From a virus, in IMG/VR virus record IMGVR_UViG_3300008267_000019, positions 20,122-84,121 of that record: a stretch of DNA of 64,000 bases; one strand, given 5' to 3'. The stretch's first letter is position 1; every line of letters begins with the position of its first letter. Both the position numbers and the translations under genes were made by a program. The notes under the pieces are model-generated. The model was not told the DNA's origin and ran no database searches. It was given only the letters and a program-made list of their open reading frames with translations. This document shows positions 1 through 34,600 of the stretch, in pieces.

Positions 1-2
1 AT

Positions 3-736: not shown

Positions 737-738
737 TC

Positions 739-879: not shown

Positions 880-894
880 TTAATAAAATAATCT

Positions 895-902
895 TATATT
901 TG
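895..902 (+). promoter_or_regulatory. Bacteroidota sigma-A -7 promoter element (TAnnTTTG)
   Basis: TATATTTG in the intergenic gap just upstream of ORF 908. Confidence 0.45.
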
Positions 903-907
903 CTATT

Positions 908-2157: not shown

Positions 2158-2443
2158 GTTAATGATGGCCGAAATGGCCGAAATGAAAAACCCAATCATG
2201 AACAACAAAGAGGTTGAATCAGAATGTAAAACTGTTAGAAAAGAATTTGCTGACGGAAGTTCTGAAGAAGTTCGTGTAGAAAAAGTTGATGGGGGATATA
2301 TCAAAACTGTATGTAAAAAATACAAAGATAAAGAAGGCTGTTGGCAATGGGATGAAGAAAAATCTGTTCACACAGAAGATCCTTTAGAAGATAAAACAAG
2401 TATAGTAGATAGACTGGCAGCAGTCATGAAAGGCTTAGAATAA
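2150..2443 (+). CDS. Hypothetical charged protein
   Basis: 97 aa ORF overlapping both neighbours in the operon. Confidence 0.6.
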   Translation: MDKLMMAEMAEMKNPIMNNKEVESECKTVRKEFADGSSEEVRVEKVDGGYIKTVCKKYKDKEGCWQWDEEKSVHTEDPLEDKTSIVDRLAAVMKGLE

Positions 2444-11206: not shown

Positions 11207-11212
11207 GATACT

Positions 11213-15013: not shown

Positions 15014-15015
15014 TA

Positions 15016-17651: not shown

Positions 17652-20600
17652 ATGAAGGCTCCTAAAAAAGAACTTAAACCAAATCCTTTACATCAACAAT
17701 TAAAAGATTTTGCTACAAAAAATGCAGATAATATAGGATATAACAAAGAATATGTAGAAGAATTAAGTACTATAACTCCTGAAAATACTTCATATAAAGG
17801 AGTAGAAGCTTTACATGCTCCTAAAGAAGCCGATATTTATGATCCATATGAAGCATATATAAATAGAACAGAACTTCATAGTGGAAGATTTGATATAAAT
17901 GAATTAAATAGGCTTAGAGCAGAAAATCAATCTAATTGGGCCCAGGCAGGTAATGCTATAGGACAACTTGCTGTTAACATAGTTCCTCAAATTGCTTCTA
18001 CTGTTAGTAACATGATAAATGTTCCAGGATGGTTTTCTGCAGAAGCAGCTGCTGCTAATCCTATACAAGAATGGGCTAGTGGAATAAAAGAATGGTCTCA
18101 AGAAGCTATGCCTATTTATGAGGAAACTCCAGGGCAAATGAATATGGCAGATCCTGCATGGTGGTTTAGCAGAGGAGAAGGTTTAATAGAATCTATGACA
18201 TCTTTTGCTATACCAGGAGGTATAGCAGGTAAAGCTGTATCTGCAGGTTTTAAAGGATTAGGAGCAGTAACGAGAGGTAAACAATTAGTAAGAGCTGTAT
18301 TAGGAGCAGAAAAGTCTGCAGGGTTATTAAAAGGAATGAGCACATTAGGCACAGCTGCTTTATTAAATCAAGCAGAAGGTGCTACAATTGCTGCAGATGT
18401 TTATAAAAATACTTTAGATTATCAATTAAAGAAAAATGGAGGTAATGTAGACTTAGCTAAAAAGATGGCATCAGAAGCTGCAGCTACTGCTATGAGTATT
18501 AATAGAATTAATATTTTACTAAACCTTACTTCTGCTAGTGCTTTTTTAACTCCTTTTAAACAAACAAGAAATCTTTTAAAAACTCAAGGAATAGGTTCTA
18601 CTTTAAGTAAAATAGGTCTAGAAGCAGGTCAAGAAGCTACAGAAGAATTAATAAACCTTGTAGGACAAAAAGCAGGAGAAGCAAAAGGACGAGAGGAAGA
18701 AGATTACGTAGCTAAAGGTCTTGAAGCTATTGGTACAATGGAAGGTTTTGAATCTGTTTTTTTAGGAGCTTTAGGCGGTGCGGGTCAAACAGGATTAGTA
18801 GATGCTAGTCAATATTCTAAATATGGAGCAGGATCAACTAAAGATGCAGAAGGTAATAGAATTAGTTATGCCCAATATCAAAGTGATCTTTATAATCAAC
18901 AACAACAAACAATTAAAGAATTAGAAGACCAAGGTGTTCAAGTAAGTGATTCTTTAATGAATGTTAAAGATGCTGTTGTATTTAATGAAAAAAGAAATAA
19001 AGCAGCTGCTGAAGGAAATCAAGAGGAGTATGATAGACTTAATAATCAAATGTTTGAAAATCAAGCATTAAAAGCATTTCAATCTGGAACTACTAAAGTA
19101 TTAGAAAATTTATACAAAGCTGAAGCAGAAAGAGATGTTGAAGAAGTTGGACAAGAATATATTGACAAAGCAAATCAAGCTGTAAAAGATTTACAAACTC
19201 TTGAAAGTGTTTATAATAATTTTGAAGAATATACTAATGTAAATGATATATTCTTTAATCGTGCTAATAAAATTAGAACAGATAGAAATTTAGGATACAT
19301 TCAAGATGCTGCTAAAACTAATAATTTAGAATTAGCGCAATTAGTAAGAAACATAGCAGGTAAATATGAATATGACGTTGAAAGAGAAGTTCTTTATAAA
19401 AAAGAAGGAGAAGTTGAACGTACAGAAACAGTAACAGAAAAAGCACCATTGACATACTCAATGAGTGACTTAGAAAATAACACAGGACAAACAGAAGGAC
19501 AGAAAAAGGTTTATAATAAATTTTTAAAAGAAGTAAAAAAACTTGATGCTTATAAAAGAGAAGTGGGTTACCAACAAGCTATAAGTAATGGAGAAAAAAT
19601 TTTAGAAGATAATAATAAAGAATTTGCAGAGTTAACAAGTCCTGAAGCACAAGAAGCTGCTTTATTAAAACAAGAAAAAGTAGCAGCTATTAAAAGTGCT
19701 TATAAAGAAGTAGCAAGTACTAGTTCTAGAGCAAGAATACAAGCTCTAATGGACACTATTGAAGATCCTGATTTTAAAAGAGTAGCACAATTAAGATTAG
19801 ATGCTTTAGATAAAGCTAAAGCAAGTAACTTACAACAAAAGAAAAAAGACTTTGCTACTAAAACAATGGAGTCTAAAATTTCTAAAGCTAGTTTAGAAGA
19901 GTTAGCAACTATTCAAGAAGAAATTAATAAGGCAGATCCTAATGATATTTCTAAAACAGCTAAAGCAGCTTTATTAAATAAAGTAGAATTTAGAGCTAGA
20001 CAGTTAAATAATCAAGTATTAGATCCACAAGAAACCGCAGAAATTCAAGATCCTTTTGCTGACTTTGATTCTCGGTCCCCAGAAGAATTAGAAAATGAAA
20101 TAGAGTTAGAACAAAAATCCTTTGATACTACTATTCCTTCAGATTTTCCTAATAATGAAAAAGAAGGTAAAGATGTAGAAACAGAAGTAGAAAATGCTGC
20201 TGTAGATTTATTAGGTTCTGATAAGAGTTTAATAATAGGTACAGATGAAAACGGCAACTTAGTTTATAACTATGAAAAAAGTGCTGAAGGTTACAATCGC
20301 GCAGCTTTCTTATCAAGGGAGTTTAATCAAACAGAAAATGTAGGAATAGTAGATCGAGAAGAAATAACTAATGATGTTATTAATTCTAAATTACTAGATC
20401 CTGATTTTTTGTTAGCAGGTACTGCATTAACAATGGAAGTTGACAATGATTACACAGGAGAAAAATACGACCCAACTTCTACAACAAGAGAAACTATTGC
20501 TTGGCCTCTTAGATTAAAACAAATTATAGATAAATATGAAGTATTAGGACAAGACTATAGACAATCATATGAATATATAACAGAAGCTCCTATTAAAGTA

Positions 20601-23600
20601 ACTACAGCAGATGGACAAACAGTATTTTATGTACATGACAATGCTTGGTATAAAGCAGAAAATTTAAGTGCTAGTCCTGAAGAAATTGCTATTGATAAAG
20701 AAAAGAATTTCTTAATAAGAAAAGCTATTATCTCTAAAGGAAAAGTAAATAGCAAAGTAGATTATAAAAGCTTTGGAAGATTATTTAAAACAGCTGACGG
20801 TAAAAAAGTGACTGTATCAGAAGCTATGCCTGATAAAAATTTAGTATTAGGTATAGGAAAAGATGGAGCTATAGAACTTTCTGGAAATAGTTCAGAAGTT
20901 ATGAAAGATGCTAAAATCTTAAAGAATAATCCTGAAGATGGTAGGTTATATGCAGTTGTTAAAGTAGGACCTAATGAATACATGCCTATTCCTTTACAAA
21001 GAAAACCTATAAACCAAGAAACTGTAGATTCAATTATTTTAGCAATTGAAGCTCACTTAACTAATGATCCTGAAAATGCTGTAGTAAAAGCTATTGCAGA
21101 ATCTTCTTTAGGATTAGACATTACTACTACTAAAGGATTATCAGATTACTTGAGTCAGTTTATTTACATATATCCTACTGAAGGTAAAGAAGGTTTAGAA
21201 AATGCATTAATTAGCAACGGTGGTACTAAAAGTACTTTAAAGTCTTCTATGCCATTAATTACTGTAACTCCTACAGGAATACAATTTGGTAGACCAGGAA
21301 TACAAGCGGCCAATTATATGGACGCTAATAATAATAAGATAGTACAGTATGCTATTAATATTTCTCAAAATTTTAATAAAACTACTGCAGGAGAAGCTAG
21401 AAATAGTTTAAACTTAAATAAACTAAGAACAGTATTAGAATCAGGTAAAGTATTAGCTAATGCTAATAAAAATACTTTAAGCAAAGATGGTAACTCTGTA
21501 ATTATATTAAATCCTGAAGGAGATACTAAAACAGATACTTATAGAGAGTTTGTAAAAGAGAATTACGAAAGTAATATCTTGTCAGTAAACATAGGCTCAG
21601 ATGAAAATCCTAAATGGGCCTATACTATACAACCTACTATTTTATTTGACACAGCATTTGCTAACATGCCTACTCAAGTAGTTGCATCTAAAGCACAGTC
21701 TACTGTAGCACCTGTACCTAGCCAAACTGCACGTACTACACAAGAACCTACTCAAGCTGTAGAAAAACTTTATTATAAAGGAGTAAATCCTACAGTAGAT
21801 ACAATTGTAACTTCCGATGATAGGGTATTACTTATTAAACGTAAAGAAGGAGCTACAGAAGGGGGCAAGTGGGCAATTCCTGGCGGCTTTGTAGATACTA
21901 ATTCTAAACCAGGTGAAGCTTGGACTCCAGGAAAAGAAACAGTAGAAGAAGCAGCTGTTAGAGAAATTAAAGAAGAAACAGGTCTTAAAATTTCTCCAAA
22001 GTCAGTAGTATTTTCTGAAAAAATTGATGATAGATCTAGAGATCCTAGAAACACAGAAGAGTCTTGGATAGAGAATTCTCTTTATACTGTTAATATTCCA
22101 GCAAAACAAATGCAAAAAGCAAAAGGAGCAGACGATGCTTCTGAAGCTAGATGGTTTACTAAAGAAGAACTATCTCAAATGCCTGCATCTGATTTTGCTT
22201 TTGATCACAGTAAAGTATTAGAAAGAAATAATTTAAGGACACCTTTAACAGCTAATAATAATATAGAATCTCAAAAAGCTGATATAGAAAGAAGAAGACA
22301 AAAAGCAATTGAATTTAATAAAGGAGCTAAACCTGTTACTGAAGAAGATTTTAAAGAATTTGATGAAAATTTTGTACTTACAGAAGAATATAAAAAATTA
22401 TTAGGTACGTATGATTTTGATTTAGATCCAGAATCTAGATCTGATAATGATTTAGTAGGTAATATTAAATCTATACAAGAAGGTATAGATTTAATTAATG
22501 CCAAATATGATGCAGAGTTAGCAGCTTTAGAACAACCTTCTACAGACATAGAAGTTAAAAGAGCCGATATAGAAAGAAGAAAAGCTTTAAGTAAAATAGT
22601 TGAGTTAGACACAAGAATATCTGATGAAGAAGTCGATGCAGTACAACCTGAACCAGGAGTAAGGGTTACTTATTATTTACCAGAAGGTAAAACTACAGAT
22701 GGAAGAGATATTTCAAAAATACCCAGAGGTTCTATTGAAAGATATACTACAGAAACTAAAGTTTTTTATGGTTTTGAAGAAGCTGAACAAGAAGCAAAAG
22801 CGTGGATTAAATCTAAATATGATGAAGAACTAGCAGCTTTAGAAGCTGCTCCTATTGCATCTGAGATTTCTGTAGAAGAGCAAGTAGAACAAAATGTTCC
22901 TACATCATTAGCAGAAAATATATTAGCGCAAGGAGTTGATTTAGCAGAAATTAATGATACTATCGAAGCATTAAATAGTGGTAATATTAATGAAGAAGCT
23001 TTAGCAGAAGCGGGTTATGAATCTACAGAACAAGCATTAGCAGCTTATCAAGAGGCTAAAGATTTATATAATAAAAGAGCTGAAGATACCGAGACTATTA
23101 CTTTGCCTAACGGTGAGACTATCACTATTACAGGTAATGATTTAGATATTAACGATCTAGCAGAGGATGAAATAGATGATTTTTTAGTTAGAACATTAAC
23201 TAAAGAACAAATAGAAGCGCAAAAAGGAGAAATAGATGAGATGATCATCTATGGTTTAAATACTACTACTCAGTCATCTTTAATAGCTTTTTTATCAGCT
23301 GATATAATTAATGCTGCTTTAAATGCTAAAGAAGTTGGAGGCAAACGCAGCGTAAAGGCTAAAGAAATCTTAGACAAGCATGAAGAGTCTTTTAAAATAT
23401 TATCTGAATTCTTTAAAAAGAAAAATTTAGTAAATAGAGCAAAACATGTTGATGCTGTATTAAGTCAATTTGATAAAGTAAGAAGATTAGTAAACCAAAA
23501 CATGAGTAAGTTTACTACAGGAAATTTATCAGAAGAAGTAGAATACGATGATAATCAGCAAGCAGTAGGACTAGAGCGTACCTACGCAGATGATTGGACC

Positions 23601-26600
23601 TTCACAGTAGACTCTAAGAATACTGCTTCTGCTGATTTAAAACAATTTTTCAGTGTAATAACAGCTCAAGATGAAAATGGTGTAATTAAAAATCCTCTAG
23701 GATTTAATGAGATTATTCCTTTTGATGTTGTGTATAATACTCTTCATGAACTACTGGCTAATAAGCCTGCTGATTATGAAACAATGATAGATATCCTAGA
23801 GTTAAATTATAATAGATTTCCTTGGATAAAATCAGTAGTAGAAAAATTAGAAGCAGCTCCTGAAAGAATTCAAAACGAGTTTGTTTCTGATATGTCTAAG
23901 CATCATATAGACATGCAGTTTGTTATGTGGTCAAAAGATCCTAATGGAAATTATTTATTACAAACATGGTCTGCTAATAAATCATCTATTGAAAATAGAC
24001 TTAGAGCTATATGGTCTTCTAATTTAAAAGGTGTAGCAACTCAAAGTAACTTAGTTTATGTAGATGAAAATGATGTTTATCAATTTAATCGTACTGTAGC
24101 AGATAGTTTAATAGCGCAAGCAGAAGAATTTGGTATGAAGCCTGAAGATGTAACCAATGAAGCATTAGCTACATGGTTAGGAAATTTTGGTATAGTACTT
24201 AATGACGAAACTTATAATGATCTTAGAAAAGGAAGATACTTTAATAATGGCAGACAAGACTGGAATAAATTATTTAATAGCTCTAAAGGAATTGTAAAAG
24301 TACTTGCTAAAGAACTAAAGAAAAAAATAGACGGGGAAATAGATGTTGAAAATTCTAATATATTAAATGACACAGCAGTAAAAGCATTAGCTTCTTTGGA
24401 TGCAGCTAATACTTTAAATTCTTTTAGTAACTCTTTTAGAGCAGGTGGTAAAACTGTTTACTCTTATGGAAATAATAATTTCTTAGTAAATCGCATGCGA
24501 GATTTAACAGCATATGATTCACAGAATAAAATGTTTTTAAATCCTGATTTAATAGATAATCTAAAAAACATTTCTTTTAGTCGTGATAGTTTATGGCTGG
24601 ATGAATTAACTAGTGATAAAGAAATAGGAACAAAAACTAGACAAACATTAAAAGTTGGTTATCTATCATTAGAAGCTTTAAAAAGATTATATACTAAATC
24701 TGAAGACAATAGAAAATTAAATAATCTTACTGCTGCAGAACATGAAGTAACTAAATTAGGTTTTTTCCAAAATGTATCTGGAGAAATTTTTGACAAAGAA
24801 GGCAGAAGAGTCGTAGACTTTTTCTATCCTACTATGTCTGATAAGACTACTATGCTTACGATCAAAGCCCTCGCAAGAGAGATAAGCTATACTAATTCTA
24901 AATTATCTGAGGAAAATTTAAAGTTATTATATAAAGCAATAGTACAACCAGAAATAAATAGAATTAGAGACAAGCAAGCTAAAAATGTAAAAGGTTATGA
25001 ACCTAATTATTTTTATTTCTTGCCTGCTTTAAACAAATTAACTATAGATGTTAATGGTGTAACTAAAAGATTCTTAGATATAGTTTTAGATAAAACAGAT
25101 GTATTATACGATCCTGCAGTACAAGCAGCTGTAATGTCAGAAATTTCTACAACATTTAATAAATTAGTTTTAGATAAATTAGATGAGTGGAATACTTTAG
25201 GTATAGGTAAAATTATAGTAGATGAAAACGGAAAAGTTACCGACAACTATACTTTTATGGATAAATCCTACATGGAAACAGTTGCAAAAGGAACTAAAGG
25301 AAAAGGACGTGTAGAATATGCCGCAGCAGATTTTGTATATAATTATTTAATTTCTAATGCAGAAGCCTATAAATTATTTGCTGGGGATCCTGCTTTATAT
25401 GCTAAGTTTAAAACTAAAAAGAAATATGCCGAAAGCATTAACAAAACCGTAGAAACTTTAACAGAAGAAGACTTAGAAACTTGGTTAGATCAAAACCTAC
25501 AAGAAACTTTTATAAACATAGGTAAACGTCTTGCAGGAGATATTGCTCCAGGTATGGAGCTAGCTAATAGTATGGATAATGTTTACTATCAAGTTTATTT
25601 AGAAGATAAAGAAATTGCTAGTAATAATGTTAAGGATAGTGTTCAGAGAGAATTCTTTGAGAAAATAGTTAGTACATATGCTGATAAGAAAAAAGGATAT
25701 GGAGCTATAGAAGGATCAGATGCGCAGGAATATACTACTTGGCAAGAGCATTTATATGTAATGAAGCAACTAGGTAGGTTGACTAAAAAGCAATTTGATA
25801 CTTTTACTAAAAAACTTACTGCGCAAAGTCAAGGTAATTTTAGCAAAGAAAATAGGTTAACTTACGACGAACTAGGAATAATTTTACAGCCAATTAAACC
25901 TGTATATGTAGGTAACATAGCTTCTAAAGAAGAAAATGTAGATCGTAGAATATATATTAAATCTTCTAGCTTTCCATTAATCCCAGAATTAACGTCAGGC
26001 CTCCAGATAGATAAAATCCGTAAAGGATTAGAAAAGTTTGAAACAGAAGTAGGAAAGACAGTTACTAAGGACGGAGTTCCTGCTTTTGTTCGAGCTTCTT
26101 TTGGAACTGCTAATAAAGTAGGAGCCGTTAAAAATTCTGTAGAAACATTTGATGACAATGGCAATGTATTAGATAACTTTGAAGTTAAACCTGAAAATAC
26201 TTTATTACTATCAAGAGCTAACTTTAGAATACAGCAAGACGTGCCATATAAACGCGAAAAAGATAGCATCAATGTAGGAACCCAGGAAGCAGTGTTATTA
26301 TTTGTAAATCTTCTTAATACGCAAGTTACTACCGATAAAACAGGTAAAGAATTACTAGATAATTACAATAAAAACTATCAAGAATTATTTGCTTACAATC
26401 AAGAAAAGTTGGCTAAAAAATTAGGACTTATAGAAGAAGTTGCAGATGGTGCAGATCTTAGTAACCTAACAAGTATTCCTACAACTGATGTATTTACTAA
26501 AGTAGAAGAGTTTAATAACAAACTAAAAAGTGCATCTCCAATTAAAAAAGTATCTATGCAAGAGGTTTTTGCAGAAGAAGTTGGGGAAGATACACTAGAA

Positions 26601-26708
26601 AGAGTTAACTTTATAAACAAAAATTTTGATAAAATCGTAGAAGAGCTAGCAAAAGCTAAAGTTAATATCTTCTTTGATGAAAATAACGAATTTAAAAAAT
26701 GTGATTAA
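17652..26708 (+). CDS. Giant virion protein: N-terminal ejection-type region, Nudix domain and N-terminal (beta-like) half of the virion RNA polymerase
   Basis: 3018 aa; Nudix box GGFVD...E...AAVREIKEETG; crAss RNAP-type motifs PTMSDK, GDPA.Y, KRL....APG, SDAQEY, QPIKPVY, KSSSFPLIP, NKVG, RIQQDVP and GTQ. Confidence 0.8.
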   Translation: MKAPKKELKPNPLHQQLKDFATKNADNIGYNKEYVEELSTITPENTSYKGVEALHAPKEADIYDPYEAYINRTELHSGRFDINELNRLRAENQSNWAQAGNAIGQLAVNIVPQIASTVSNMINVPGWFSAEAAAANPIQEWASGIKEWSQEAMPIYEETPGQMNMADPAWWFSRGEGLIESMTSFAIPGGIAGKAVSAGFKGLGAVTRGKQLVRAVLGAEKSAGLLKGMSTLGTAALLNQAEGATIAADVYKNTLDYQLKKNGGNVDLAKKMASEAAATAMSINRINILLNLTSASAFLTPFKQTRNLLKTQGIGSTLSKIGLEAGQEATEELINLVGQKAGEAKGREEEDYVAKGLEAIGTMEGFESVFLGALGGAGQTGLVDASQYSKYGAGSTKDAEGNRISYAQYQSDLYNQQQQTIKELEDQGVQVSDSLMNVKDAVVFNEKRNKAAAEGNQEEYDRLNNQMFENQALKAFQSGTTKVLENLYKAEAERDVEEVGQEYIDKANQAVKDLQTLESVYNNFEEYTNVNDIFFNRANKIRTDRNLGYIQDAAKTNNLELAQLVRNIAGKYEYDVEREVLYKKEGEVERTETVTEKAPLTYSMSDLENNTGQTEGQKKVYNKFLKEVKKLDAYKREVGYQQAISNGEKILEDNNKEFAELTSPEAQEAALLKQEKVAAIKSAYKEVASTSSRARIQALMDTIEDPDFKRVAQLRLDALDKAKASNLQQKKKDFATKTMESKISKASLEELATIQEEINKADPNDISKTAKAALLNKVEFRARQLNNQVLDPQETAEIQDPFADFDSRSPEELENEIELEQKSFDTTIPSDFPNNEKEGKDVETEVENAAVDLLGSDKSLIIGTDENGNLVYNYEKSAEGYNRAAFLSREFNQTENVGIVDREEITNDVINSKLLDPDFLLAGTALTMEVDNDYTGEKYDPTSTTRETIAWPLRLKQIIDKYEVLGQDYRQSYEYITEAPIKVTTADGQTVFYVHDNAWYKAENLSASPEEIAIDKEKNFLIRKAIISKGKVNSKVDYKSFGRLFKTADGKKVTVSEAMPDKNLVLGIGKDGAIELSGNSSEVMKDAKILKNNPEDGRLYAVVKVGPNEYMPIPLQRKPINQETVDSIILAIEAHLTNDPENAVVKAIAESSLGLDITTTKGLSDYLSQFIYIYPTEGKEGLENALISNGGTKSTLKSSMPLITVTPTGIQFGRPGIQAANYMDANNNKIVQYAINISQNFNKTTAGEARNSLNLNKLRTVLESGKVLANANKNTLSKDGNSVIILNPEGDTKTDTYREFVKENYESNILSVNIGSDENPKWAYTIQPTILFDTAFANMPTQVVASKAQSTVAPVPSQTARTTQEPTQAVEKLYYKGVNPTVDTIVTSDDRVLLIKRKEGATEGGKWAIPGGFVDTNSKPGEAWTPGKETVEEAAVREIKEETGLKISPKSVVFSEKIDDRSRDPRNTEESWIENSLYTVNIPAKQMQKAKGADDASEARWFTKEELSQMPASDFAFDHSKVLERNNLRTPLTANNNIESQKADIERRRQKAIEFNKGAKPVTEEDFKEFDENFVLTEEYKKLLGTYDFDLDPESRSDNDLVGNIKSIQEGIDLINAKYDAELAALEQPSTDIEVKRADIERRKALSKIVELDTRISDEEVDAVQPEPGVRVTYYLPEGKTTDGRDISKIPRGSIERYTTETKVFYGFEEAEQEAKAWIKSKYDEELAALEAAPIASEISVEEQVEQNVPTSLAENILAQGVDLAEINDTIEALNSGNINEEALAEAGYESTEQALAAYQEAKDLYNKRAEDTETITLPNGETITITGNDLDINDLAEDEIDDFLVRTLTKEQIEAQKGEIDEMIIYGLNTTTQSSLIAFLSADIINAALNAKEVGGKRSVKAKEILDKHEESFKILSEFFKKKNLVNRAKHVDAVLSQFDKVRRLVNQNMSKFTTGNLSEEVEYDDNQQAVGLERTYADDWTFTVDSKNTASADLKQFFSVITAQDENGVIKNPLGFNEIIPFDVVYNTLHELLANKPADYETMIDILELNYNRFPWIKSVVEKLEAAPERIQNEFVSDMSKHHIDMQFVMWSKDPNGNYLLQTWSANKSSIENRLRAIWSSNLKGVATQSNLVYVDENDVYQFNRTVADSLIAQAEEFGMKPEDVTNEALATWLGNFGIVLNDETYNDLRKGRYFNNGRQDWNKLFNSSKGIVKVLAKELKKKIDGEIDVENSNILNDTAVKALASLDAANTLNSFSNSFRAGGKTVYSYGNNNFLVNRMRDLTAYDSQNKMFLNPDLIDNLKNISFSRDSLWLDELTSDKEIGTKTRQTLKVGYLSLEALKRLYTKSEDNRKLNNLTAAEHEVTKLGFFQNVSGEIFDKEGRRVVDFFYPTMSDKTTMLTIKALAREISYTNSKLSEENLKLLYKAIVQPEINRIRDKQAKNVKGYEPNYFYFLPALNKLTIDVNGVTKRFLDIVLDKTDVLYDPAVQAAVMSEISTTFNKLVLDKLDEWNTLGIGKIIVDENGKVTDNYTFMDKSYMETVAKGTKGKGRVEYAAADFVYNYLISNAEAYKLFAGDPALYAKFKTKKKYAESINKTVETLTEEDLETWLDQNLQETFINIGKRLAGDIAPGMELANSMDNVYYQVYLEDKEIASNNVKDSVQREFFEKIVSTYADKKKGYGAIEGSDAQEYTTWQEHLYVMKQLGRLTKKQFDTFTKKLTAQSQGNFSKENRLTYDELGIILQPIKPVYVGNIASKEENVDRRIYIKSSSFPLIPELTSGLQIDKIRKGLEKFETEVGKTVTKDGVPAFVRASFGTANKVGAVKNSVETFDDNGNVLDNFEVKPENTLLLSRANFRIQQDVPYKREKDSINVGTQEAVLLFVNLLNTQVTTDKTGKELLDNYNKNYQELFAYNQEKLAKKLGLIEEVADGADLSNLTSIPTTDVFTKVEEFNNKLKSASPIKKVSMQEVFAEEVGEDTLERVNFINKNFDKIVEELAKAKVNIFFDENNEFKKCD

Positions 26709-27181
26709 TGGAAAAATTACTTACAGACATAGAACAAAAAGAGCTTAATAAATTTGGAAAGTTAGAACTTACTGCTTCCCAAGTTTATTTGCATTTGTCT
26801 AACCGCATGAAAACATTAGGTTACTTTGGTGCAGAAAAATTTTTCTTATCAGAATCTAATAGTGAAAGAGAACACTATGGTAAAATAGAAAAATTTGCTA
26901 ATGATTTAGGATGTGAACTTTCAGTAGAAGCTTTAGATGCTGTAGAATGTAATTGCACAGATATTAAATCTGCTTTACAAATGGCATATGATATGGAGAA
27001 AGAGTTAATGAATTCTTATGAAACTTCTGCTAGAAAATCTGATTTAACATTAAAAGTAGTTTTATTGTTACAAGACTTTACTACTCACCAAGTAGGAGCC
27101 GTAGGAGAATATGGTGATTTGCTAGCAAGATTAGCTCTTACAGATAACATGTTATTATTCGATCAAGAATTAGGCAACTAA
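26708..27181 (+). CDS. Ferritin-like protein
   Basis: 157 aa four-helix pattern ELTASQVY...G...FF..ES.SEREH...AY.MEK...HQ, matching the ferroxidase-centre residues of FtnA-type ferritins. Confidence 0.85.
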   Translation: MEKLLTDIEQKELNKFGKLELTASQVYLHLSNRMKTLGYFGAEKFFLSESNSEREHYGKIEKFANDLGCELSVEALDAVECNCTDIKSALQMAYDMEKELMNSYETSARKSDLTLKVVLLLQDFTTHQVGAVGEYGDLLARLALTDNMLLFDQELGN

Positions 27182-27192
27182 AATAATTTATA

Positions 27193-30100
27193 ATGGCTTG
27201 TCAGTATTTTGTTAACGGCAACTGGGTTACAGAAGAGCAGTTTAAAGAAATTTTAAATAATGGTTTATTAGACAATCTAATTGCTGATAATACTGTTAAA
27301 TTAAAAAACTTTAAAATAGATCAATCAAAAGTATTATCTAGAGAGACTAGACGAGTAGAAAGAAAAACTATTCCCGCTGCAAAGCTTGCTGATATATTAG
27401 CAAAAGAAATTAAGTCTCGTCAAGGATATCCTTCAAACTTACTTTCTGCTTTAGAACTTACTGAAGATGGCCAAGATTTTAAGATTCCATTATGGGCATC
27501 TCCTTATGCTGCAAAATTTGAAAGCTTACTTACTTCTCTCGTTACTAATAAAGTTATTAAACAAAAGTTTGCAGGAATGTCAGGAGTCCTTGGATCAGAA
27601 GAAGGATTTAGAATTAAACAAGGAGATGCTGCTGCAGGAGAATTAAAAAATTCAGGTATTGTATTTACTAAAAACTTTGATCCAGAAAAAGGATTACAAC
27701 CATTACGTGTAGATCCTGAAACAGGTAAAATGCTTCCTGCACAAATAATGTTGCCTTTTAAATTTAGAGACGAATCTGGAAAAATTTTGCCTTTAGAAGA
27801 TTTTTTAATTAAAGATGAATCTGGAAAATTTATATTAGATACTTCTAAATTTCCTCAAAAATTATTAAATCTTTTTGGTTTCCGTATTCCTACACAGGAA
27901 CGTAACTCTATGGCAGCTGTAGAAATAGTAGGATTCTTACCTGAAGCATCTGGAGATCTAATTTTAGCACCTAGAGATTTTACAAAACAAATGGGTTCTG
28001 ACTTTGACGTTGATAAGTTATATACTTATATGTACAATCATTTCTACGACAGAAATACAGGAAAGATCTATACTAATTTTATATCTAATAAAGAAAAATT
28101 AGAAAAATTAATTAAGATTCAAAAAGAAACTATTGAAGATTTAAAAGCAGAGTTTAAATTAAATAAAGAAGATAGAAAACTAATTGATGCATATATTAAA
28201 GAAAAATTAGAATATACATCAGAAAATGAAGAAATACCTAGTGAACTATCACAAAAAGCTTCTGAAATAATTTCTAAAAGTTTATCAGAAGATTTACAAA
28301 ATAAATTAGATGCAGCTTTTGATTCATTATCAGTATTAAATAGATCTTATAAATCTTCTAGACAAAATAATATACTAGATGTGCATCTAGATATTATGAC
28401 TAGTAATAATCCAGAAGTTATTTCTAGTATTATAGCATTAGATTCCTTTGGGGAATTTGAAGATCTAGCTGCTGACATAAGTAAAATACGTAAAGCTCAA
28501 GGCTTAATTTCTGATCCTGTTACTATTCTTTCAGATTCTTATCAAAGAAAAAAGTTTATTAATGCAACTGAAGGTAAAAATGGAGTAGGTGCATTCTCTT
28601 TAGACTCTACTTTTAATGCTACAGCACAAGGAAAAGATTTGTTATACGTCAATATGAGCGACGAAACATATCAAGATATTATAAATAATAATGCTCCAGG
28701 TAGTATAGCTGCAAAATTATTAGAAAACAATAATCCTGTAACTAAATTTGGAGATACTGTTTCTATGGGGGATCTTTCTAATGAATATACTTTAAGATCT
28801 CAACAGCTTATTATTAAAGCTAAAGCAGAAAAAAGAGAATTAACTAAGAAAGAAAAACAATCTTTAAAATTTAAGTCTAATATTATTAGGGCCCTACAAT
28901 CTACATCAGTGGATAATGAAAAAGCACAGATCTTAGATAAATTAAACATTAATGATAATACTTTTGATGCTATTAGAGCATTAGTGCAATTAGGTTTTGA
29001 AGAAAAAGATATCGTAGGTTTAATTACTCAAGAGATTGTTTGGGAATATGTAAGTAATTTAAAAGAAGCAGGATCTTCTTTAATGGGCTATACTCCTAAT
29101 ATGGAGCAAAAAGTTTATGAAGATCTTATAAAAAAATATGACAAACAAGAAAGATACAATAAACTTACTGTTGCACAAATAGAACAGTTTAGTTCTGGAT
29201 CTAGTGAAAAATTATTAGAAAATATAGCTAATAAAAAATTACAAGAGTCTAATAAAGAAACTACTACACCTGATTATAATATAGAACAGCTAGCATTACT
29301 AGATAAATTTAGATATTTAACAGAAGTAGGAAAAGATATTAAAAAACTACAATCAGGAATAAATGCATTCTCTAAAGGTCTTCCTAAATCTTTAATAGAA
29401 GTACAAAGTAAAATCAAACAAATAAGCAATTTAACTACTTCTAAAGTATACAATGCCGATAAGTTATTAGGAGAAATTAATAATGAAGGGATATTAGTAA
29501 ATCCTACTACTCTTAATGGATTTGCTAGTTATTATGGAACTAACTTTGCAGATAAAATATTTAATAATTATTTTCCATATAATATTCAAGGATTTAAAAG
29601 TGTAACACAGGAAGTGCAAGCTCACATGCCTCAAGGAGCAGATATAAGTGTTACTCGCCAAGCAGAATTACAACAAGAAATATTTAATAATGTAAAGTCT
29701 TTCTTGTATGCAAATTCTGATACTAATCTATTTGGGGAAGATCCTGATTCAGAGCGCAGAAGATTATTTGTAGATTCTAAAGATAATATGAGTCTTGCAA
29801 CTATTCTATCTAAGTTATCTAGTCAAGAATGGTTTCAAAAAAATGGTTTCTTAAACAAACTTTCTTTTGATTTAAATAAAAACGGTAAAGTTTCTAGAAT
29901 AATGTTTGAATCTGCAACAGGTGAAAACTTTGATGAAAGAGATATATATGATGGATTTAATTATTTATTAAGTAAAAATTTTCCAATAAAAAATCCATCA
30001 TCCCCAGATGGCACTTTTAATAGTATAGAATATACTTCTAGAATGCTGGCACAAGAACTTGTAGCTGCTGCATATTTAGAGGGCGGTACTCAAGGAGCTG

Positions 30101-31632
30101 CACAATATTTAAAATATATTCCAATATCTTATTTAAAATCTTTAGGATTTGGCGAATACCTAGCTAATAGTCCATTTGATTTTGCTAGTACTTTTTTTGG
30201 TAATTTATCTACAGGAGGGCCTATATATACAATGCCTTCTGCATTTACTAGACAATATTTTCAAAATAATCCTAGTGCTACAAAGACTATAACTATGTCA
30301 GATATAGAAGGAGCACCTGATAAATTAGAAAATAGTTTTAAACTAAATAAAGAAGCTACTAAAAATAACTTTGTAGATATTATAGATCCTGCTACTGGAG
30401 ATCTTACACAAACACAAACTAAATTTATTAGCATCTATGCCCCTAAAGAAGTAAACAAATATGTTTTATATGAATTTGATGAAGTAGCTAGAGAATATAA
30501 GAAAATACCTGTACTATCTGATAAATACGACTTTGTAGCTTATAACTCAGAAAGAAGATTCTCTACACCTATAGAAAGTGGAGAAATAGTTACTACTACT
30601 CCTCCGCAATTAAACTTACCAGGATACGGCATTAACAGTATACCTGTAGAGCCTAGTAAAGAGTTTAACATTAATGTCGTAAATAATACTGCTAAACCTG
30701 CTACAGGAAATAGTTTAGCTATTTCTAAAGATTTATCAGGTACTAAAGAAGCTGTAGATGATTTATTTAATGTCTTAGAAACTGCGCCAGGTATATCTAA
30801 ACTTAATGCACAATTGATGGTGTTATTAAGAACTTTAGAACTTCCTAAAGGATTTAAAGTTGAGTACGCAAAGAAAGGTAAAACAATTAAAGGAGGTTAT
30901 AATTATAAAACAAATACCTTAACAATAAATACAGATATTTTTAACGAGTTATCTACTGATGAAATAGCTACTACTATAAATCATGAATTAATTCATGCAG
31001 TTACAGGAAAAGCTATTAAACTTTATGAAGCAGGAAAATTTGATGAACTTACTGATAAACAAATTGAAGTTATTCAAAGATTACAAGAAGTTCAAAAACA
31101 ATATATTGATTATTTAATAAGCACTGAAGGAACAAAAGGAATAGAAACTTTTGCTAAAGCTTATGCAGAATTTAAAGAGTTAGGTAAAAAAGGAAATTGG
31201 ACAGATGAGGAGCTTAGTAAGTACTATGGTGCTATAAAACTTTCTGAGTTTGTAACAATGGCTCTTACAGATTCTAAATTCCAAGAGCACTTAAATCAAA
31301 TACCTGGAGATAATAATAGAACTCTTTGGGAGCAAATTAAAGATTTACTTGCTAGTTTAGTTAATGCATTAGGATTAGATATTAAACCAGGTTCTGCTCT
31401 TGTAGTAGCAATAAAAGATTCTTTAGATTTAATTAATGTAAATCAAGAAATTTTTAAAGATCAGAAAGTTACTAATCAACCTACTCAACCATCTATTCAA
31501 ACTAATGAAAATATGTCTTTAGAAGATTGGGAAAATTATAGTAGTATTAATGATCTATTTGACGAATCTATTACAGAATCATTGATTAGTAGGGATAAAT
31601 ACGAAAACTATTTGTTAATTTGTGGAAAATAA
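27193..31632 (+). CDS. Virion RNA polymerase catalytic (beta'-like) half fused to a C-terminal zincin metallopeptidase
   Basis: GFRIPTQ and GSDFDVDKLY (DxDxD at 28000-28014); HELIH at 30982-30996 with a downstream SEFVTMAL glutamate helix. Confidence 0.88.
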   Translation: MACQYFVNGNWVTEEQFKEILNNGLLDNLIADNTVKLKNFKIDQSKVLSRETRRVERKTIPAAKLADILAKEIKSRQGYPSNLLSALELTEDGQDFKIPLWASPYAAKFESLLTSLVTNKVIKQKFAGMSGVLGSEEGFRIKQGDAAAGELKNSGIVFTKNFDPEKGLQPLRVDPETGKMLPAQIMLPFKFRDESGKILPLEDFLIKDESGKFILDTSKFPQKLLNLFGFRIPTQERNSMAAVEIVGFLPEASGDLILAPRDFTKQMGSDFDVDKLYTYMYNHFYDRNTGKIYTNFISNKEKLEKLIKIQKETIEDLKAEFKLNKEDRKLIDAYIKEKLEYTSENEEIPSELSQKASEIISKSLSEDLQNKLDAAFDSLSVLNRSYKSSRQNNILDVHLDIMTSNNPEVISSIIALDSFGEFEDLAADISKIRKAQGLISDPVTILSDSYQRKKFINATEGKNGVGAFSLDSTFNATAQGKDLLYVNMSDETYQDIINNNAPGSIAAKLLENNNPVTKFGDTVSMGDLSNEYTLRSQQLIIKAKAEKRELTKKEKQSLKFKSNIIRALQSTSVDNEKAQILDKLNINDNTFDAIRALVQLGFEEKDIVGLITQEIVWEYVSNLKEAGSSLMGYTPNMEQKVYEDLIKKYDKQERYNKLTVAQIEQFSSGSSEKLLENIANKKLQESNKETTTPDYNIEQLALLDKFRYLTEVGKDIKKLQSGINAFSKGLPKSLIEVQSKIKQISNLTTSKVYNADKLLGEINNEGILVNPTTLNGFASYYGTNFADKIFNNYFPYNIQGFKSVTQEVQAHMPQGADISVTRQAELQQEIFNNVKSFLYANSDTNLFGEDPDSERRRLFVDSKDNMSLATILSKLSSQEWFQKNGFLNKLSFDLNKNGKVSRIMFESATGENFDERDIYDGFNYLLSKNFPIKNPSSPDGTFNSIEYTSRMLAQELVAAAYLEGGTQGAAQYLKYIPISYLKSLGFGEYLANSPFDFASTFFGNLSTGGPIYTMPSAFTRQYFQNNPSATKTITMSDIEGAPDKLENSFKLNKEATKNNFVDIIDPATGDLTQTQTKFISIYAPKEVNKYVLYEFDEVAREYKKIPVLSDKYDFVAYNSERRFSTPIESGEIVTTTPPQLNLPGYGINSIPVEPSKEFNINVVNNTAKPATGNSLAISKDLSGTKEAVDDLFNVLETAPGISKLNAQLMVLLRTLELPKGFKVEYAKKGKTIKGGYNYKTNTLTINTDIFNELSTDEIATTINHELIHAVTGKAIKLYEAGKFDELTDKQIEVIQRLQEVQKQYIDYLISTEGTKGIETFAKAYAEFKELGKKGNWTDEELSKYYGAIKLSEFVTMALTDSKFQEHLNQIPGDNNRTLWEQIKDLLASLVNALGLDIKPGSALVVAIKDSLDLINVNQEIFKDQKVTNQPTQPSIQTNENMSLEDWENYSSINDLFDESITESLISRDKYENYLLICGK

Positions 31633-31638
31633 AATACG

Positions 31639-34600
31639 ATGGCAGAAGTCTGTGCAAATAAAAATAGTAAGGAATGGAAGATGCTAGTTTCTCAAACAGG
31701 AGAGACTTTAGCAAATCTTGCATTCATGGCAAATGGTAATCAAATTCCCGATGTTAAGCCTATTACAGAAATTAAAAAAGAAATAGGTTTTAAACCTTTA
31801 GTAGAAAACTTTGCAGGAATAGGTAATAAATTAAGAAAGTACAATCAAAAAAACGGAACGTCACATTATTTTATAAAAGAAAGAGCTTGGGGTAATACTT
31901 TTAGATTAACTCTAAAGTATAACTACTTACCTGTTAATATAGAAAGACAACGTCAAAGAATGGCTGCTAAAGGGGATCCTTTATATGTTATTAATGACTT
32001 TGATCCAAAAGCATTTAGTGATATTTATCCTAATGTACCTACTCCTCAAATTATAACACCTCCTACACAGCCAGGCAAACAGTTAGATATATTTTCTGAT
32101 GACATAGATGAGTTACTTACAGGATCAGAAACTAGAGTAACTGCTGTAGAGCAGAAAAGAAAACAAAAGATTAACACTGATATTATAAAACAACGTGAGC
32201 AATTAAAAAAAGCAGATACTCCAGAAGAAGTTAGAAGTATATATGCTAAATTAGAAAAACTACAAAAAAGTTTAGACTTAGCAGAAAAAAGAACTATTTT
32301 ATCTAGAAATATAGAAAGCTTTGAAGATGTAGAAAAGTTTGGTAAAGTACAATTAAAAGAAATAGAAACTTTACTTAAAAATCCTGCAATAAGTTATGAT
32401 GATGTTTATTATGCTCAAAGGATTCTTAATTTATGGACAAAAGCAGGAGATTTTTCTAGTAAATCTAATGAACATATTTTTTTAGATCCTGAAGAATTTG
32501 AATCTTCTGAAGATGTAACATTACCTGATGGTACTGTAGTACCTTCTGTACGTTCTAGATTTAGAGCTTTAGGAGCTAAGGCAGAAGATTTACAAAGTCA
32601 ACTTACTACTATTAGAGATCAATACGTTACAGATTTTGTAAATCAATATACTGATGGGGGATTAACTCAAGAAGAAGTTTTTAAGGCTATGAAAGATGTC
32701 CATAAGATGGCAACTTTAACTTTAAATCTATCTCGTCATGATGATGCAATGTTGCAAGCTATATTTCTTTCTGTAGAATCTGCTAATATAAAAGCACAGC
32801 AAGAAGTAGATGAAGTTTGGAAAAAGCTTGATAGCCTGACCCCAAAATTTTTAAGAAAAGCAGGCGGTAATTTTGAAATTTTAAAACAAAAAGATTCTTC
32901 TGGTAAAGAAACAGGAAGAATAGTACATAGATTTTCTGCAGACTTTTTTGACATTAGAAATAATCTAATGATGGAAGCTTTTTATAAAAAAGATCTTAAC
33001 ACAGGAGATTACAAAAAAAATCCTGCAGGAATAAAAAGCTACTATGATTGGATTAATAAAAATACTATTTCATTTGATCCAAGAATGTTATTTGAAGATA
33101 GCCTTCTTGAAGATGGTTCTATGCCTGAAGAGTTTTTATACAATAGAGTTAAATTTGATGAAGCTCAAAAGCAGGCTCATATTGCAGAATTAAAAGCACA
33201 GTTAGGCGAAAAAGGTTATAATTATTATCTCCAACAAATGGAGAAAAGAATTGAGAAATTTAAAGTTCGTAGAGAAGCTATATATGAAAGCATGCAATCA
33301 GAACCTGAATTATCTCAAGTAGAAAAAGATGCTTTATTTGAAAACTGGCTAAAAGAATATTCTCCTTATTGGGGAGTTGACATGGTAGAAAATCCTGCTC
33401 AAAGAGAAAAAGGCACTAGTACAGAAGGAAAAAAAGAATACTATTCTCCAAAAGGTTTAAGAGAATATGTAGAACAAGTTCCTAGAAAATTTGTAGATGG
33501 TAAAGAAACAGGATGGTACGATAAAAACTTTCAAAAAATAGAAGCAGATGAAGATCTATTAGCTTATCATACTTTTCTTAATGAAACTCTTAATACATTA
33601 AAATATACTTTACCTGATAATAAACAAGCAATACTAGGAGAAGGTGTATTACCTACTGTCCAAAAATCTTTAATGGATATTTTTAAAGAAAAAGGATTAA
33701 TGATGGGTGTTGTTCCTTTTTGGGACAAAATGAAAGAATTACAGACCACTACTGATTTATCTACTACAGTAACTACTGATGTAGATGATTTAACAGGAGA
33801 TAGAGAAAAAAATATTCAAATACAATTTTTAGAAGACCCTACTAATAAAATAAAAAATCTAGTTAGAGAGATGGCTATACGCCATAAACAGGAAACAGGA
33901 AAACCTGCTACTGCTGCAGACATGGCTAGATTTAAAAGAGAAGCACAAGATACTTTATCTAAACAAAAAAGTTGGGACGTTACTAAAGTACTTAAAGCAT
34001 GGTCTTTAACAGTATTAGCACACAAACATAAATCTTTTATAGAGCCTCAGATTAGATTAGCAGATCAAGCTTTTAAATCTAGAAAAGAAATAGTAACTAA
34101 TAAAGCAGGATTACCCCAAGAAAAAGATGGTCAACCTTTAAATGAAACAGGTTTAAATAACTTACAGTCCGCATTAGATTACTATTTAGATGTAGACATG
34201 TGGGGTATAGGCGGAAGAAAAGTAGAAGGTGTTACTAAAACTAAATTATATACTAAAGAAGAGCAAAAAAGAAAAAAAGAATTGGAAGCTTTATTAGTTT
34301 CTGAAGAAGATGAAGAAAACAAACAGTTTATTCAAAATCAAATTGATGCTTTAGGAGGATTTAGAACAGGTAGTGGTGTAGTAGATACAGTGCTTAAATA
34401 TCAAACCTTAAAAGGACTAGGGTGGAACTTATTTTCTGCAGCATCTAATATTGGATTTGGAGCAATTTCTAATATAATAGAAGGAGCTGACGGTAGAAAT
34501 TATTCTACAAAAGATTTGCGTAAAGCAATGTTACTTACTACTAATTCTATAGGAAGAAATCTATTTTTTAATACTTGGGAAGGTGTAAATTCTAATGCTG

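What the first reader, a model, noticed from the sequence alone, without database searches (positions are those of the whole stretch)
26430..27372. Virion RNA polymerase fractured by a docking-end + ferritin + docking-end cassette
Seen: RNAP-type motifs run through RIQQDVP, GTQ and LAKKLGL in gene A and appear to resume at KLADILAKEI...RIPTQ...DFDVD in gene B. Between them lie an extra ~90-aa tail on A (ending INKNFDKIVEEL...KKCD), a complete ferritin gene overlapping A's stop codon, and an extra ~60-aa head on B (MACQYFVNG...TEEQFKEIL). Known: the phi14:2 gp66 RNAP is one polypeptide, and other crAss phages have split versions. Inference: the tail/head pair is a portable non-intein rejoining module that tolerates breaking an essential gene and lets a passenger gene sit in the break, analogous to fractured genes with split inteins.
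Basis: partly seen in the sequence, partly recalled or inferred. Interest (0 to 1): 0.85.

Follow-up and report, generated by a model that had tools for sequence, protein, structure and literature searches.

The report
Cysteine-tipped ferritin cassette splits phage polymerase
In this uncultured crAss-like phage the injected RNA polymerase, one chain in its relatives, is cut in two by a small block that adds matching cysteine-tipped end-pieces and a ferritin gene, and the same block separates unrelated giant virion proteins in other phages, so it probably ties the two chains back together end to end.

Summary
Observation confirmed. Gene A (17652-26708, 3018 aa) and gene B (27193-31632, 1479 aa) together match the single 4287-aa FpV4 gp32 and phi14:2 gp66. 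The cut lies in a 12-21-residue loop of the Connector between the two catalytic barrels. A carries 92 extra C-terminal residues, B 64 extra N-terminal residues, and a ferritin gene lies between them.

Interpretation largely supported, with corrections. The tail and head are not peculiar to this break. The same tail | ferritin | head block sits (i) mid-polymerase in 15 loci, (ii) upstream of an unbroken polymerase in 10 loci (3 more examined lack ferritin), and (iii) between two giant non-polymerase proteins in 13 loci of about 64-kb phages. In a 1.84-billion-protein library the head is N-terminal in 100 of 102 hits. The tail is C-terminal in 52 of 52 hits of a second search. Each end-piece carries the only cysteine at its end of the chain. 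The same facing-cysteine rule holds in phi14:2, FpV4 and crAss001. In cyanophage A-4L such a pair is a disulfide seen by cryo-EM.

Re-linking itself is inferred, not shown. Ferritin is a near-constant companion, not a random passenger. This scan reached the same reading earlier on other genomes.

The parts
17652..26708 (+). Gene A (3018 aa): N-terminal cargo region, Nudix domain, first half of the virion RNAP (first barrel, start of the Connector), then the tail
26226..26246 (+). RIQQDVP motif (A 2859-2865), equivalent to KLQQDLP at the start of the gp66 Connector
26430..26705 (+). Tail: 92 residues (A 2927-3018) absent from contiguous homologues
26598..26705 (+). Conserved tail core (ERVNFINKNFDKIVEEL...FFDENNEFKKCD), always at the extreme C-terminus. 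Cys3017 codon at 26700-26702 is the only Cys of A
26644..27306 (+). The only stretch with DNA similarity (74%) to class II locus L008: last ~21 codons of A, ferritin, first 38 codons of B
26708..27181 (+). Ferritin gene (157 aa). Start overlaps A's stop. H-chain-type ferroxidase ligands E20, Y27, E53, H56, E97, Q128 are conserved in at least 95% of 29 homologues
27193..27384 (+). Head: 64 residues (B 1-64) absent from contiguous homologues
27193..27327 (+). Conserved head core (MACQYFVNGNWVTEEQFKEILNNGLLDNLI...); invariant M1 C3 Y5 E14 K18 L21 G24. Cys3 codon at 27199-27201
27193..31632 (+). Gene B (1479 aa): head, rest of the Connector, second barrel with DFDVD (nt 28000-28014), SprT/zincin-like HExxH region (B 1219-1271), C-terminal ...LLICGK* (Cys1477, nt 31621-31623)
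31639..35763 (+). Gene C (1374 aa): next giant protein. Its only Cys is residue 5 (MAEVC, nt 31651-31653), facing B's C-terminal Cys. Second Cys-capped junction, without ferritin

Best explanation
A pre-existing junction cassette was inserted into a short loop of the Connector domain of a single-chain, FpV4-type virion RNA polymerase. The cassette is a C-terminal helix ending in a cysteine, a ferritin gene, and an N-terminal cysteine followed by a roughly 40-residue hairpin-plus-helix. The insertion turned the enzyme into two separately translated chains, split where cellular polymerases divide into beta and beta-prime.

The tail and head are the normal end-pieces that neighbouring giant, cysteine-free ejected proteins carry in many phages. 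I propose that the tail helix of A docks on the head of B and the two terminal cysteines form an inter-chain disulfide in the particle. The broken polymerase is then still packed and threaded out as one linear chain. After injection the two barrels form one active site.

Shown: the split, the extra end-pieces, their strict terminal position, their recurrence in three protein contexts, the cysteine rule, and an intact ferroxidase site. Inferred: docking, the disulfide, the function of the split enzyme, and the direction and number of insertion events.
For: 1. Break and extras. The break maps to gp66 1116-1162, inside the Connector (gp66 1095-1238; preprint 10.1101/2020.03.07.982082, passages read).

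2. Three contexts.
- Class I: window plus 14 loci, break mid-RNAP.
- Class II: 10 loci with X (1290-1666 aa; two seen only as fragments, one cut before X) | ferritin | Y. In the two records read in full, Y is 3677 and 3119 aa and matches gp66 across the window's break site (Y 1948-2527 = gp66 814-1376).
- The same junction without ferritin in L065, L067 and L068.
- Type III: 13 loci, U | ferritin | D. The only match to B in 5 of 5 records is the head.

3. Head profile against 1.84 billion representatives: 102 hits, 100 starting at residue 1-13. Of those at least 900 aa, 13 have DFDxD near residue 270, 15 near 1860-2240, and 32 have none.

4. Tail profile: 52 of 52 hits end at the last residue, with Cys last or second-last.

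5. Cysteines. A, B and C hold 4 Cys in 5871 aa, against about 58 expected from the other ORFs (Poisson P 2e-20). All four lie within 5 residues of a facing end (P 7e-11). The same holds in phi14:2 gp67/66/65, FpV4 gp32/33, G001, G002 and crAss001 gp47/50/49, which lie on opposite strands. Nine of 13 contiguous loci have a single Cys, at the end of the giant ORF, and none at the Connector site. Type III D proteins, which have no following partner, have a C-terminal Cys in 1 of 32.

6. Precedent. In A-4L, gp27's only Cys is 1715 of 1717 and gp26's only Cys is 5. Cryo-EM shows gp27's C-terminal helix in a gp26 cleft, with that disulfide (PMC12002296, passages read).

7. B-core tree: class I is one clade (82/54), sister to contiguous L039 (99/96) and nested among contiguous lineages.
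Against: - No experiment or complex model supports docking. AF2 models of A's C-terminal 192 residues and B's first 250 residues are poor (mean pLDDT 53.5 and 48.5). Chains could not be joined for a complex prediction.
- The disulfide is inferred from position and one distant precedent. A-4L shows no sequence match to the head (no hit better than E 5 in GenBank phages).
- Four class II loci have a shorter tail lacking the FFxE part.
- Some contiguous relatives (L042, L043, L045, L046/47) carry internal cysteines.
- The A-core tree pairs contiguous L039 with class I L026 (94/84, not starred). One gain is therefore not shown; a loss or a second gain is possible.
- Cellular beta and beta-prime assemble without any such link, so the end-pieces may not be needed for enzyme assembly.
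Confidence: 0.5

Rival explanations
1. The tail and head are independent address labels rather than partners. Each separately made cargo chain needs its own signal for loading into the procapsid or for ordered ejection (binding portal, scaffold or tail barrel). The new C-terminal fragment B therefore had to acquire an N-terminal label.
For: Strict terminal position. Presence on virion-block proteins with no detectable mutual similarity. crAss001 cargo is stored in defined zones and C1 binds the portal (PMC10172136, passages read).
Against: The two pieces were always seen as an adjacent pair: every head-bearing gene whose upstream gene end is visible has a Cys-ended protein before it. A C-terminal Cys is present only when a partner with an N-terminal Cys follows. 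The A-4L structure shows a direct C-end to N-end contact.
Confidence: 0.2
2. Ferritin is a working part of the junction. It may act as a di-iron oxidase that forms the inter-chain disulfide in the reducing cytoplasm, or as a hub on which the tail and head dock during assembly.
For: Ferritin lies in 38 of the 41 head-type junctions examined (15 of 15 class I, 10 of 13 class II, 13 of 13 type III). All 20 IMG/VR ferritin loci have a head-bearing gene directly after the ferritin. Spacing is very tight (overlap, or 1-15 nt). Ferroxidase ligands are conserved across 48-84% identity.
Against: phi14:2, FpV4, crAss001, A-4L and L065/67/68 have the cysteine pairs without any ferritin. A-4L forms the disulfide without one. 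Ferritin's own cysteines are not conserved.
Confidence: 0.12
3. The end-pieces are tolerated baggage. A ferritin gene (an iron or oxidative-stress auxiliary gene) spreads by recombination through conserved gene ends. One such event landed in the polymerase. The two halves assemble through their own barrel interface, as beta and beta-prime do.
For: The ferritin tree mixes class I and class II, and starred branches force at least 3 changes. DNA similarity to class II is confined to the cassette. Cellular RNAPs need no link (established knowledge).
Against: The end-pieces are conserved where ferritin is absent and between phages whose ferritins are only 48-51% identical. They have invariant residues and never lose the cysteine.
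Confidence: 0.13
4. Not a true split: assembly error, intron, intein, frameshift or read-through restores one chain.
For: crAss-like RNAP genes are elsewhere interrupted by introns (PMC7886860, passages read). cr116_1 has a LAGLIDADG-type ORF inside DFD|VD.
Against: 14 independent contigs show the same architecture. The three genes lie in three frames, and relative frames differ between loci. There is no Rfam intron (only a chance hit at E 0.88) and no Hint or intein Pfam hit. The end-pieces have no intein blocks.
Confidence: 0.03

Closest known systems
Virion RNA polymerase gp66 of Cellulophaga phage phi14:2 (and FpV4 gp32)
   Same: Homologous over both barrels, the DFDxD motif and the Connector. 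Lies in the same block of three giant virion proteins with cysteine-capped facing ends.
   Different: gp66 and gp32 are single chains through the Connector. The window's enzyme is two chains with 92 + 64 extra terminal residues and a ferritin gene between them.
Cyanopodophage A4 / Anabaena phage A-4L ejection proteins gp27-gp26 (PNAS 2025, PMC12002296)
   Same: Two consecutive giant, otherwise cysteine-free ejection proteins. The upstream one has its only Cys third from the end and the downstream one at residue 5. Cryo-EM shows the C-terminal helix of gp27 in a cleft of gp26, fixed by that disulfide.
   Different: No detectable sequence similarity to the head. No ferritin. Not a split enzyme. 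A different phage family. The paper, in the passages I read, does not generalise the pattern.
Aeromonas phage Aeh1 NrdA-a/NrdA-b split by mobE (Crona et al. 2010, PMC3045599; abstract read)
   Same: An essential enzyme gene is split by an inserted ORF. Unique C- and N-terminal tails that arose with the insertion act as protein interaction domains, with no RNA or protein splicing.
   Different: There the insert is a homing endonuclease and the tails are unique to that locus. Here the insert is a ferritin, no endonuclease is present, and the tails form a widespread cysteine-tipped family found on proteins with no detectable mutual similarity.
Fractured genes with split inteins (Dassa et al. 2009, PMC2677866; search listing and abstract start only)
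   Same: A gene broken in two with another gene in the break, and added end-pieces on both fragments.
   Different: No Hint or intein domain. No conserved intein blocks. No endonuclease. The end-pieces would stay on the mature proteins.
Cellular beta / beta-prime RNA polymerase subunits
   Same: The two double-psi barrels lie on separate chains, with the DxDxD barrel on the second (preprint text).
   Different: Independent origin of the split. Here it is a recent insertion in a single-chain QDE-1/gp66-type enzyme.

Membership tests
crAss-like virion RNAP (phi14:2 gp66 type) | DFDxD catalytic motif in the second barrel | tested here: met
   DFDVD at B 270-274, aligned to gp66 DFDID
crAss-like virion RNAP (phi14:2 gp66 type) | Sequence homology to gp66 on both sides of the Connector | tested here: met
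   A 2498-2878 = gp66 795-1116 (E 2e-15); B 48-282 = gp66 1162-1373 (E 2e-14)
crAss-like virion RNAP (phi14:2 gp66 type) | Both barrels in one polypeptide | tested here: not met
   Stop codon, ferritin gene and new start between them; same in 14 related contigs
crAss-like virion RNAP (phi14:2 gp66 type) | Packaged in the virion and injected | not testable with these tools
   Inferred from homology and gene position only
Split intein / fractured gene | Hint/intein domain halves at the new ends, with nucleophile and terminal Asn blocks | tested here: not met
   No intein Pfam hit on A or B. The tail is predicted helical (low confidence). By eye, I saw no Cys/Ser at the tail start and no His-Asn block.
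Group I/II intron-split gene | Structured intron RNA between the exons | tested here: not met
   Rfam E-value search of 25500-28500: only a chance snoRNA hit, E 0.88
Genes-in-pieces with insertion-derived interaction tails (Aeh1 NrdA type) | Essential gene split by an inserted ORF, with unique tails absent from unsplit homologues | tested here: met
Genes-in-pieces with insertion-derived interaction tails (Aeh1 NrdA type) | Inserted ORF is a mobile endonuclease | tested here: not met
   The insert is a ferritin (PF00210). No other ORF lies in the gap.
Genes-in-pieces with insertion-derived interaction tails (Aeh1 NrdA type) | Tails required for activity or assembly | not testable with these tools
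   Needs biochemistry
End-to-end disulfide-linked ejection proteins (A-4L gp27-gp26 type) | Only Cys of the upstream giant protein within the last few residues; only N-terminal Cys of the next protein at residue 3-6 | tested here: met
   A Cys3017 of 3018; B Cys3; A-4L checked
End-to-end disulfide-linked ejection proteins (A-4L gp27-gp26 type) | C-terminal helix of the upstream protein docking on the downstream protein | tested here: inconclusive
   AF2 gives helices at A 2945-3001 but mean pLDDT is 53.5. No complex model was possible.
End-to-end disulfide-linked ejection proteins (A-4L gp27-gp26 type) | Disulfide present in the particle | not testable with these tools
   Needs virions
Ferritin (PF00210) | Four-helix-bundle ferritin domain with di-iron ferroxidase ligands | tested here: met
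   PF00210 E 1e-12. PDB ferritins E 4e-8. E20, Y27, E53, H56, E97, Q128 at least 95% conserved in 29 sequences. The match to H-chain ligand numbering is my reading of the alignment.

The most novel reading that the evidence does not exclude
Podophages that inject giant proteins share a portable cut-and-relink kit. It consists of a cysteine-ended C-terminal helix and a cysteine-started N-terminal module, usually travelling with a ferritin gene. The kit can be dropped into any giant cargo gene. The two products are then tied end to end by a disulfide and still leave the capsid as one linear thread. The cysteine pair thus substitutes for a peptide bond. This would explain why cargo gene boundaries drift so freely in crAss-like phages. 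Ferritin may help make or guard the link.
Probability: 0.35. Interest if true: 0.85.

Novelty: new variant of a known kind. Interest (0 to 1): 0.72.

Why it matters
The finding would give a concrete, testable rule for how crAss-like and other podophages organise about 1 MDa of injected protein. Chains would be tied end to end through single terminal cysteines, and a gene can be cut anywhere if the new ends receive these caps.

It offers an explanation for the varying protein boundaries that Yutin et al. noted in the crAss transcription block (PMC7886860).

It shows a single-chain two-barrel polymerase being converted into a beta/beta-prime-like two-chain enzyme by one insertion.

It points to a small natural pair of peptide tags that might re-associate split proteins. 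It also raises the question of why a ferritin with an intact ferroxidase site travels with that junction.

Cultured phages (phi14:2, FpV4, crAss001) carry the same cysteine pairs, so the central claim can be tested at once.

Tried and rejected
- Intein, intron or recoding as the cause of the split: rejected.

- Head as ordinary internal RNAP sequence: BLASTP extended B 5-64 onto cr116_1 gp051 2227-2275. I also saw a [YF]x[VI]xGxx[VL]xxxE[FL] resemblance to the native segment just before the break. Profile-profile comparison gave probability 2%, so I treat it as an extension artefact.

- X (class II upstream protein) as a homologue of A's N-terminal part: an HMM of 8 X proteins found nothing significant in A, FpV4 or phi14:2 proteins (best full E 0.14). 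Left open.

- AF2 of the two end regions: too poor for any fold search. No fold search was run.

- GenBank phages hold neither the head (best E 5, chance level) nor the ferritin (no hit at 1e-3).

- Tail scan of IMG/VR with A3 gave only 5 loci, all known contigs.

- Literature. Searches listed no paper describing the ferritin cassette or a terminal-cysteine rule in crAss-like phages. 'Cysteine' occurs 0 times in the gp66 preprint and in the crAss001 atlas. Those of PMC7886860 (RNAP block figures) and PMC12002296 (gp26/gp27 alignments) may bear on this.

- Not done: backbone phylogeny of whole genomes, tail-head covariation statistics, RNA or read evidence. L066 was not examined.

Full report
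WHAT IS THERE

The window is part of an 84,121-nt IMG/VR virus record with direct terminal repeats. Its plus strand carries a run of giant genes. The finding concerns three of them:
- A: 17652-26708, 3018 aa.
- A 157-aa ORF at 26708-27181, whose ATG overlaps A's TAA.
- B: 27193-31632, 1479 aa.

Pfam finds a Nudix domain in A, a ferritin domain in the small ORF (E 1e-12) and an SprT/zincin-like stretch near B's C-terminus. One PHROG profile of 4401 positions (phrog_16227) matches A up to position 2990 and B from position 3005.

THE POLYMERASE IS SPLIT AND THE END-PIECES ARE EXTRA

tblastn and BLASTP place A and B on the single 4287-aa gp32 of Flavobacterium phage FpV4:
- A 1950-2926 = gp32 1860-2884.
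- B 65-1057 = gp32 2900-3904.

FpV4 therefore has 15 residues where the window has 92 (tail) + ferritin + 64 (head).

On phi14:2 gp66, A 2498-2878 = 795-1116 and B 48-282 = 1162-1373, including DFDID. The gp66 preprint gives the Connector between the two double-psi barrels as residues 1095-1238 (passages read). The break therefore lies inside the Connector.

In 13 of 13 ferritin-less IMG/VR relatives (L039-L051) the two cores are in one frame, 36-240 nt apart. The alignment of 10 of them plus FpV4 shows ...ELGL [12-21 residues] LQxLLxxEA... where the window has ...KKLGL | tail and head | LADILAKE.

No intein domain and no intron RNA is present. The three genes are in three frames, and the relative frames differ between related loci.

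THE SAME BLOCK OCCURS ELSEWHERE

Scans of IMG/VR with the ferritin, A's C-terminus and a head alignment gave three further architectures besides the window's.

Class I (window plus 14 contigs)
- Tail, ferritin and head sit at exactly this Connector site.

Class II with ferritin (10 contigs)
- The ferritin is up to 84% identical to the window's.
- It is preceded by a protein X ending ...FFNENNEFKKCK* or ...TQGCK*. X is 1290-1666 aa where complete. It is seen only as a fragment in L014 and L015, and L027 is cut before it.
- It is followed by a protein Y starting MACKYWYDGKW... .
- In the two records read in full, Y is 3677 and 3119 aa and matches gp66 across the window's break site (Y 1948-2527 = gp66 814-1376).
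- DNA similarity between the window and L008 is confined to 26644-27306 (74%). That is the last ~21 codons of A, the ferritin and the first 38 codons of B.

Class II without ferritin
- L065, L067 and L068 have the same X|Y junction with a 32-nt spacer and no ferritin. L066 was not examined.

Type III (13 contigs of about 40-65 kb)
- A head variant alignment (A4) led to these loci.
- U is 1313-1907 aa where complete, with its only Cys last or second-last. U is visible in 12 of 13 loci.
- A 155-aa ferritin (13 of 13 loci) is 48-51% identical to the window's.
- D starts MAKPC.YQLPG.D.WMSE.EFK....
- U and D have no PHROG hit.
- In 5 of 5 records searched, three of them 94-96% complete, the only match to B is the head.

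TERMINAL POSITION IS STRICT

Head profile
- The profile (A1) was run against 1.84 billion representatives and found 102 proteins at E <= 1e-3.
- In 100 of them the match starts at residue 1-13.
- The two exceptions are a repetitive protein (P0037) and a 148-aa fragment (P0058).
- Among hits of at least 900 aa, 13 have DFDxD near residue 262-288, 15 have it near 1858-2243, and 32 have none.

Tail profile
- The profile (A2) was run against the 5.8-billion-protein collection. Only proteins of 80-2000 aa were searched, and only the 8000 candidates sharing most words were scored.
- It gave 52 hits. All 52 end at the protein's last residue, with Cys last or second-last.

No fused or internal copy was seen. 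The head does not resemble the native pre-break segment beyond chance (hhalign probability 2%).

THE CYSTEINE RULE

- A has one Cys (3017 of 3018), B has two (3 and 1477 of 1479), and C has one (5).
- At the Cys frequency of the window's other ORFs (92 in 9248 residues), about 58 would be expected in A+B+C (Poisson P 2e-20).
- The chance that all four lie within 5 residues of a facing end is 7e-11.
- The same pattern holds in other phages:
  - phi14:2: gp67 ...TIC*, gp66 MAC......ECK*, gp65 MSC.
  - FpV4: gp32 ...NCN*, gp33 MAC.
  - G001 and G002.
- It also holds in crAss001 (gp47 ...RCNS*, gp50 MSKRC......ICGANTLYEL*, gp49 MAKKC), although gp47 and gp50 are on opposite strands.
- Nine of 13 contiguous loci have a single Cys, at the end of the giant ORF, and none at the Connector site. 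The next gene is visible in seven of them, and there it starts with Cys at residue 3-4. Four loci break the rule with internal cysteines.
- Among head-bearing library proteins, a C-terminal Cys is present in 12 of 13 class I and 15 of 15 class II proteins, which are followed by another capped protein. It is present in only 1 of 32 proteins without DFDxD.

Cysteines thus appear where a chain is broken and a partner follows, and are absent where the chain is continuous.

PRECEDENT

- In Anabaena phage A-4L, gp27 (1717 aa) has its only Cys at 1715, and gp26 (1114 aa) has its only Cys at 5.
- The cryo-EM paper states that gp27's C-terminal long helix inserts into a cleft of gp26 and is fixed by a Cys1715-Cys5 disulfide (PMC12002296, passages read).
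- The Aeh1 NrdA case shows that insertion-derived terminal tails can be essential interaction domains of a split enzyme (PMC3045599, abstract read).

FERRITIN

- Its closest solved relatives are animal ferritins (E 4e-8).
- E20, Y27, E53, H56, E97 and Q128 are at least 95% conserved in 29 sequences of all three contexts. By my reading of the alignment these are the H-chain ferroxidase ligands.
- It lies in 38 of the 41 head-type junctions examined.
- All 20 ferritin loci have a head-bearing gene directly after the ferritin.
- Yet phi14:2, FpV4, crAss001, A-4L and L065/67/68 have the cysteine pairs without it.
- The ferritin tree mixes class I and class II, and starred branches force at least 3 changes. 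I read this as exchange of the cassette through its conserved ends.

ORIGIN

- On the B-core tree, class I is one clade (82/54), sister to contiguous L039 (99/96), inside contiguous lineages.
- The A-core tree is unresolved and pairs L039 with class I L026 (94/84).
- One insertion into a contiguous FpV4-type gene is the simplest reading. It is not proven.

MECHANISM

Shown:
- the anatomy;
- the recurrence in three contexts;
- the strict terminal position;
- the cysteine rule.

Inferred:
- the tail helix docks on the head;
- the two cysteines form a disulfide in the particle;
- the broken polymerase is handled as one linear thread and reassembles after injection.

AF2 models of the two end regions were too poor to help (pLDDT 53.5 and 48.5). 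Their secondary structure (three helices in the tail; a hairpin plus two helices in the head) is only a hint.

EARLIER WORK OF THIS SCAN

The same cassette and the same cysteine rule were reported before on other genomes. My tests were made independently on this window and agree with them.

Noticed in passing
window 21789-22220 (A residues 1380-1523): A Nudix hydrolase domain (PF00293, E 5e-18; best PDB match a MutT/Nudix protein, E 2e-10) is embedded in the giant protein A, upstream of the polymerase part.
   Followed up: no
window 30847-31005 (B residues 1219-1271): An SprT/zincin-like HExxH region lies near B's C-terminus (Pfam score 24.9, just under the 25.6 cut-off). The surrounding B 1188-1421 aligns to the N-terminal part of cr116_1 gp051 (551-758). 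The domain therefore sits at opposite ends of the block in different phages.
   Followed up: partly
L001/L005 (cr116_1, NC_055882.1 gp051-gp050-gp049): The cr116_1 polymerase gene ends ...GSDFD+KSYVEIKMC*, and the gene after next starts M+VDKEYLM..., so the DFD|VD motif is interrupted. The 215-aa ORF between them has an LLIGLLIGD (LAGLIDADG-like) motif, which suggests an intron-type interruption unlike the window's split.
   Followed up: partly
L099 (crAss001 gp47, gp50, gp49): The facing-cysteine pattern holds although gp47 is on the opposite strand from gp50 and gp49. It is therefore a property of the proteins, not of gene adjacency.
   Followed up: partly
L086-L097, about 12.7-16 kb of each locus: Directly after D, type III phages encode small proteins very rich in cysteine (15-22 Cys in about 250-400 aa, starting MACNCN... 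or MSCTNCGS...), followed by tail-fibre genes. This contrasts sharply with the cysteine-free U and D.
   Followed up: no
L046 versus L047: In two near-identical contigs, the giant polymerase gene is one open frame of 4041 aa in L047. In L046 it is two overlapping ORFs (1-7689 and 7620-12122), which suggests a frameshift or sequencing error.
   Followed up: no
L039 versus class I loci: On the A-core tree the contiguous locus L039 pairs with class I L026 (94/84). On the B-core tree it is sister to all of class I. This may reflect secondary loss of the cassette or recombination between the halves.
   Followed up: partly
window 7685-17619: The three large ORFs before A (1173, 1266 and 867 aa) hold one cysteine in 3306 residues. 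Cysteine depletion therefore extends to the whole cargo block.
   Followed up: no
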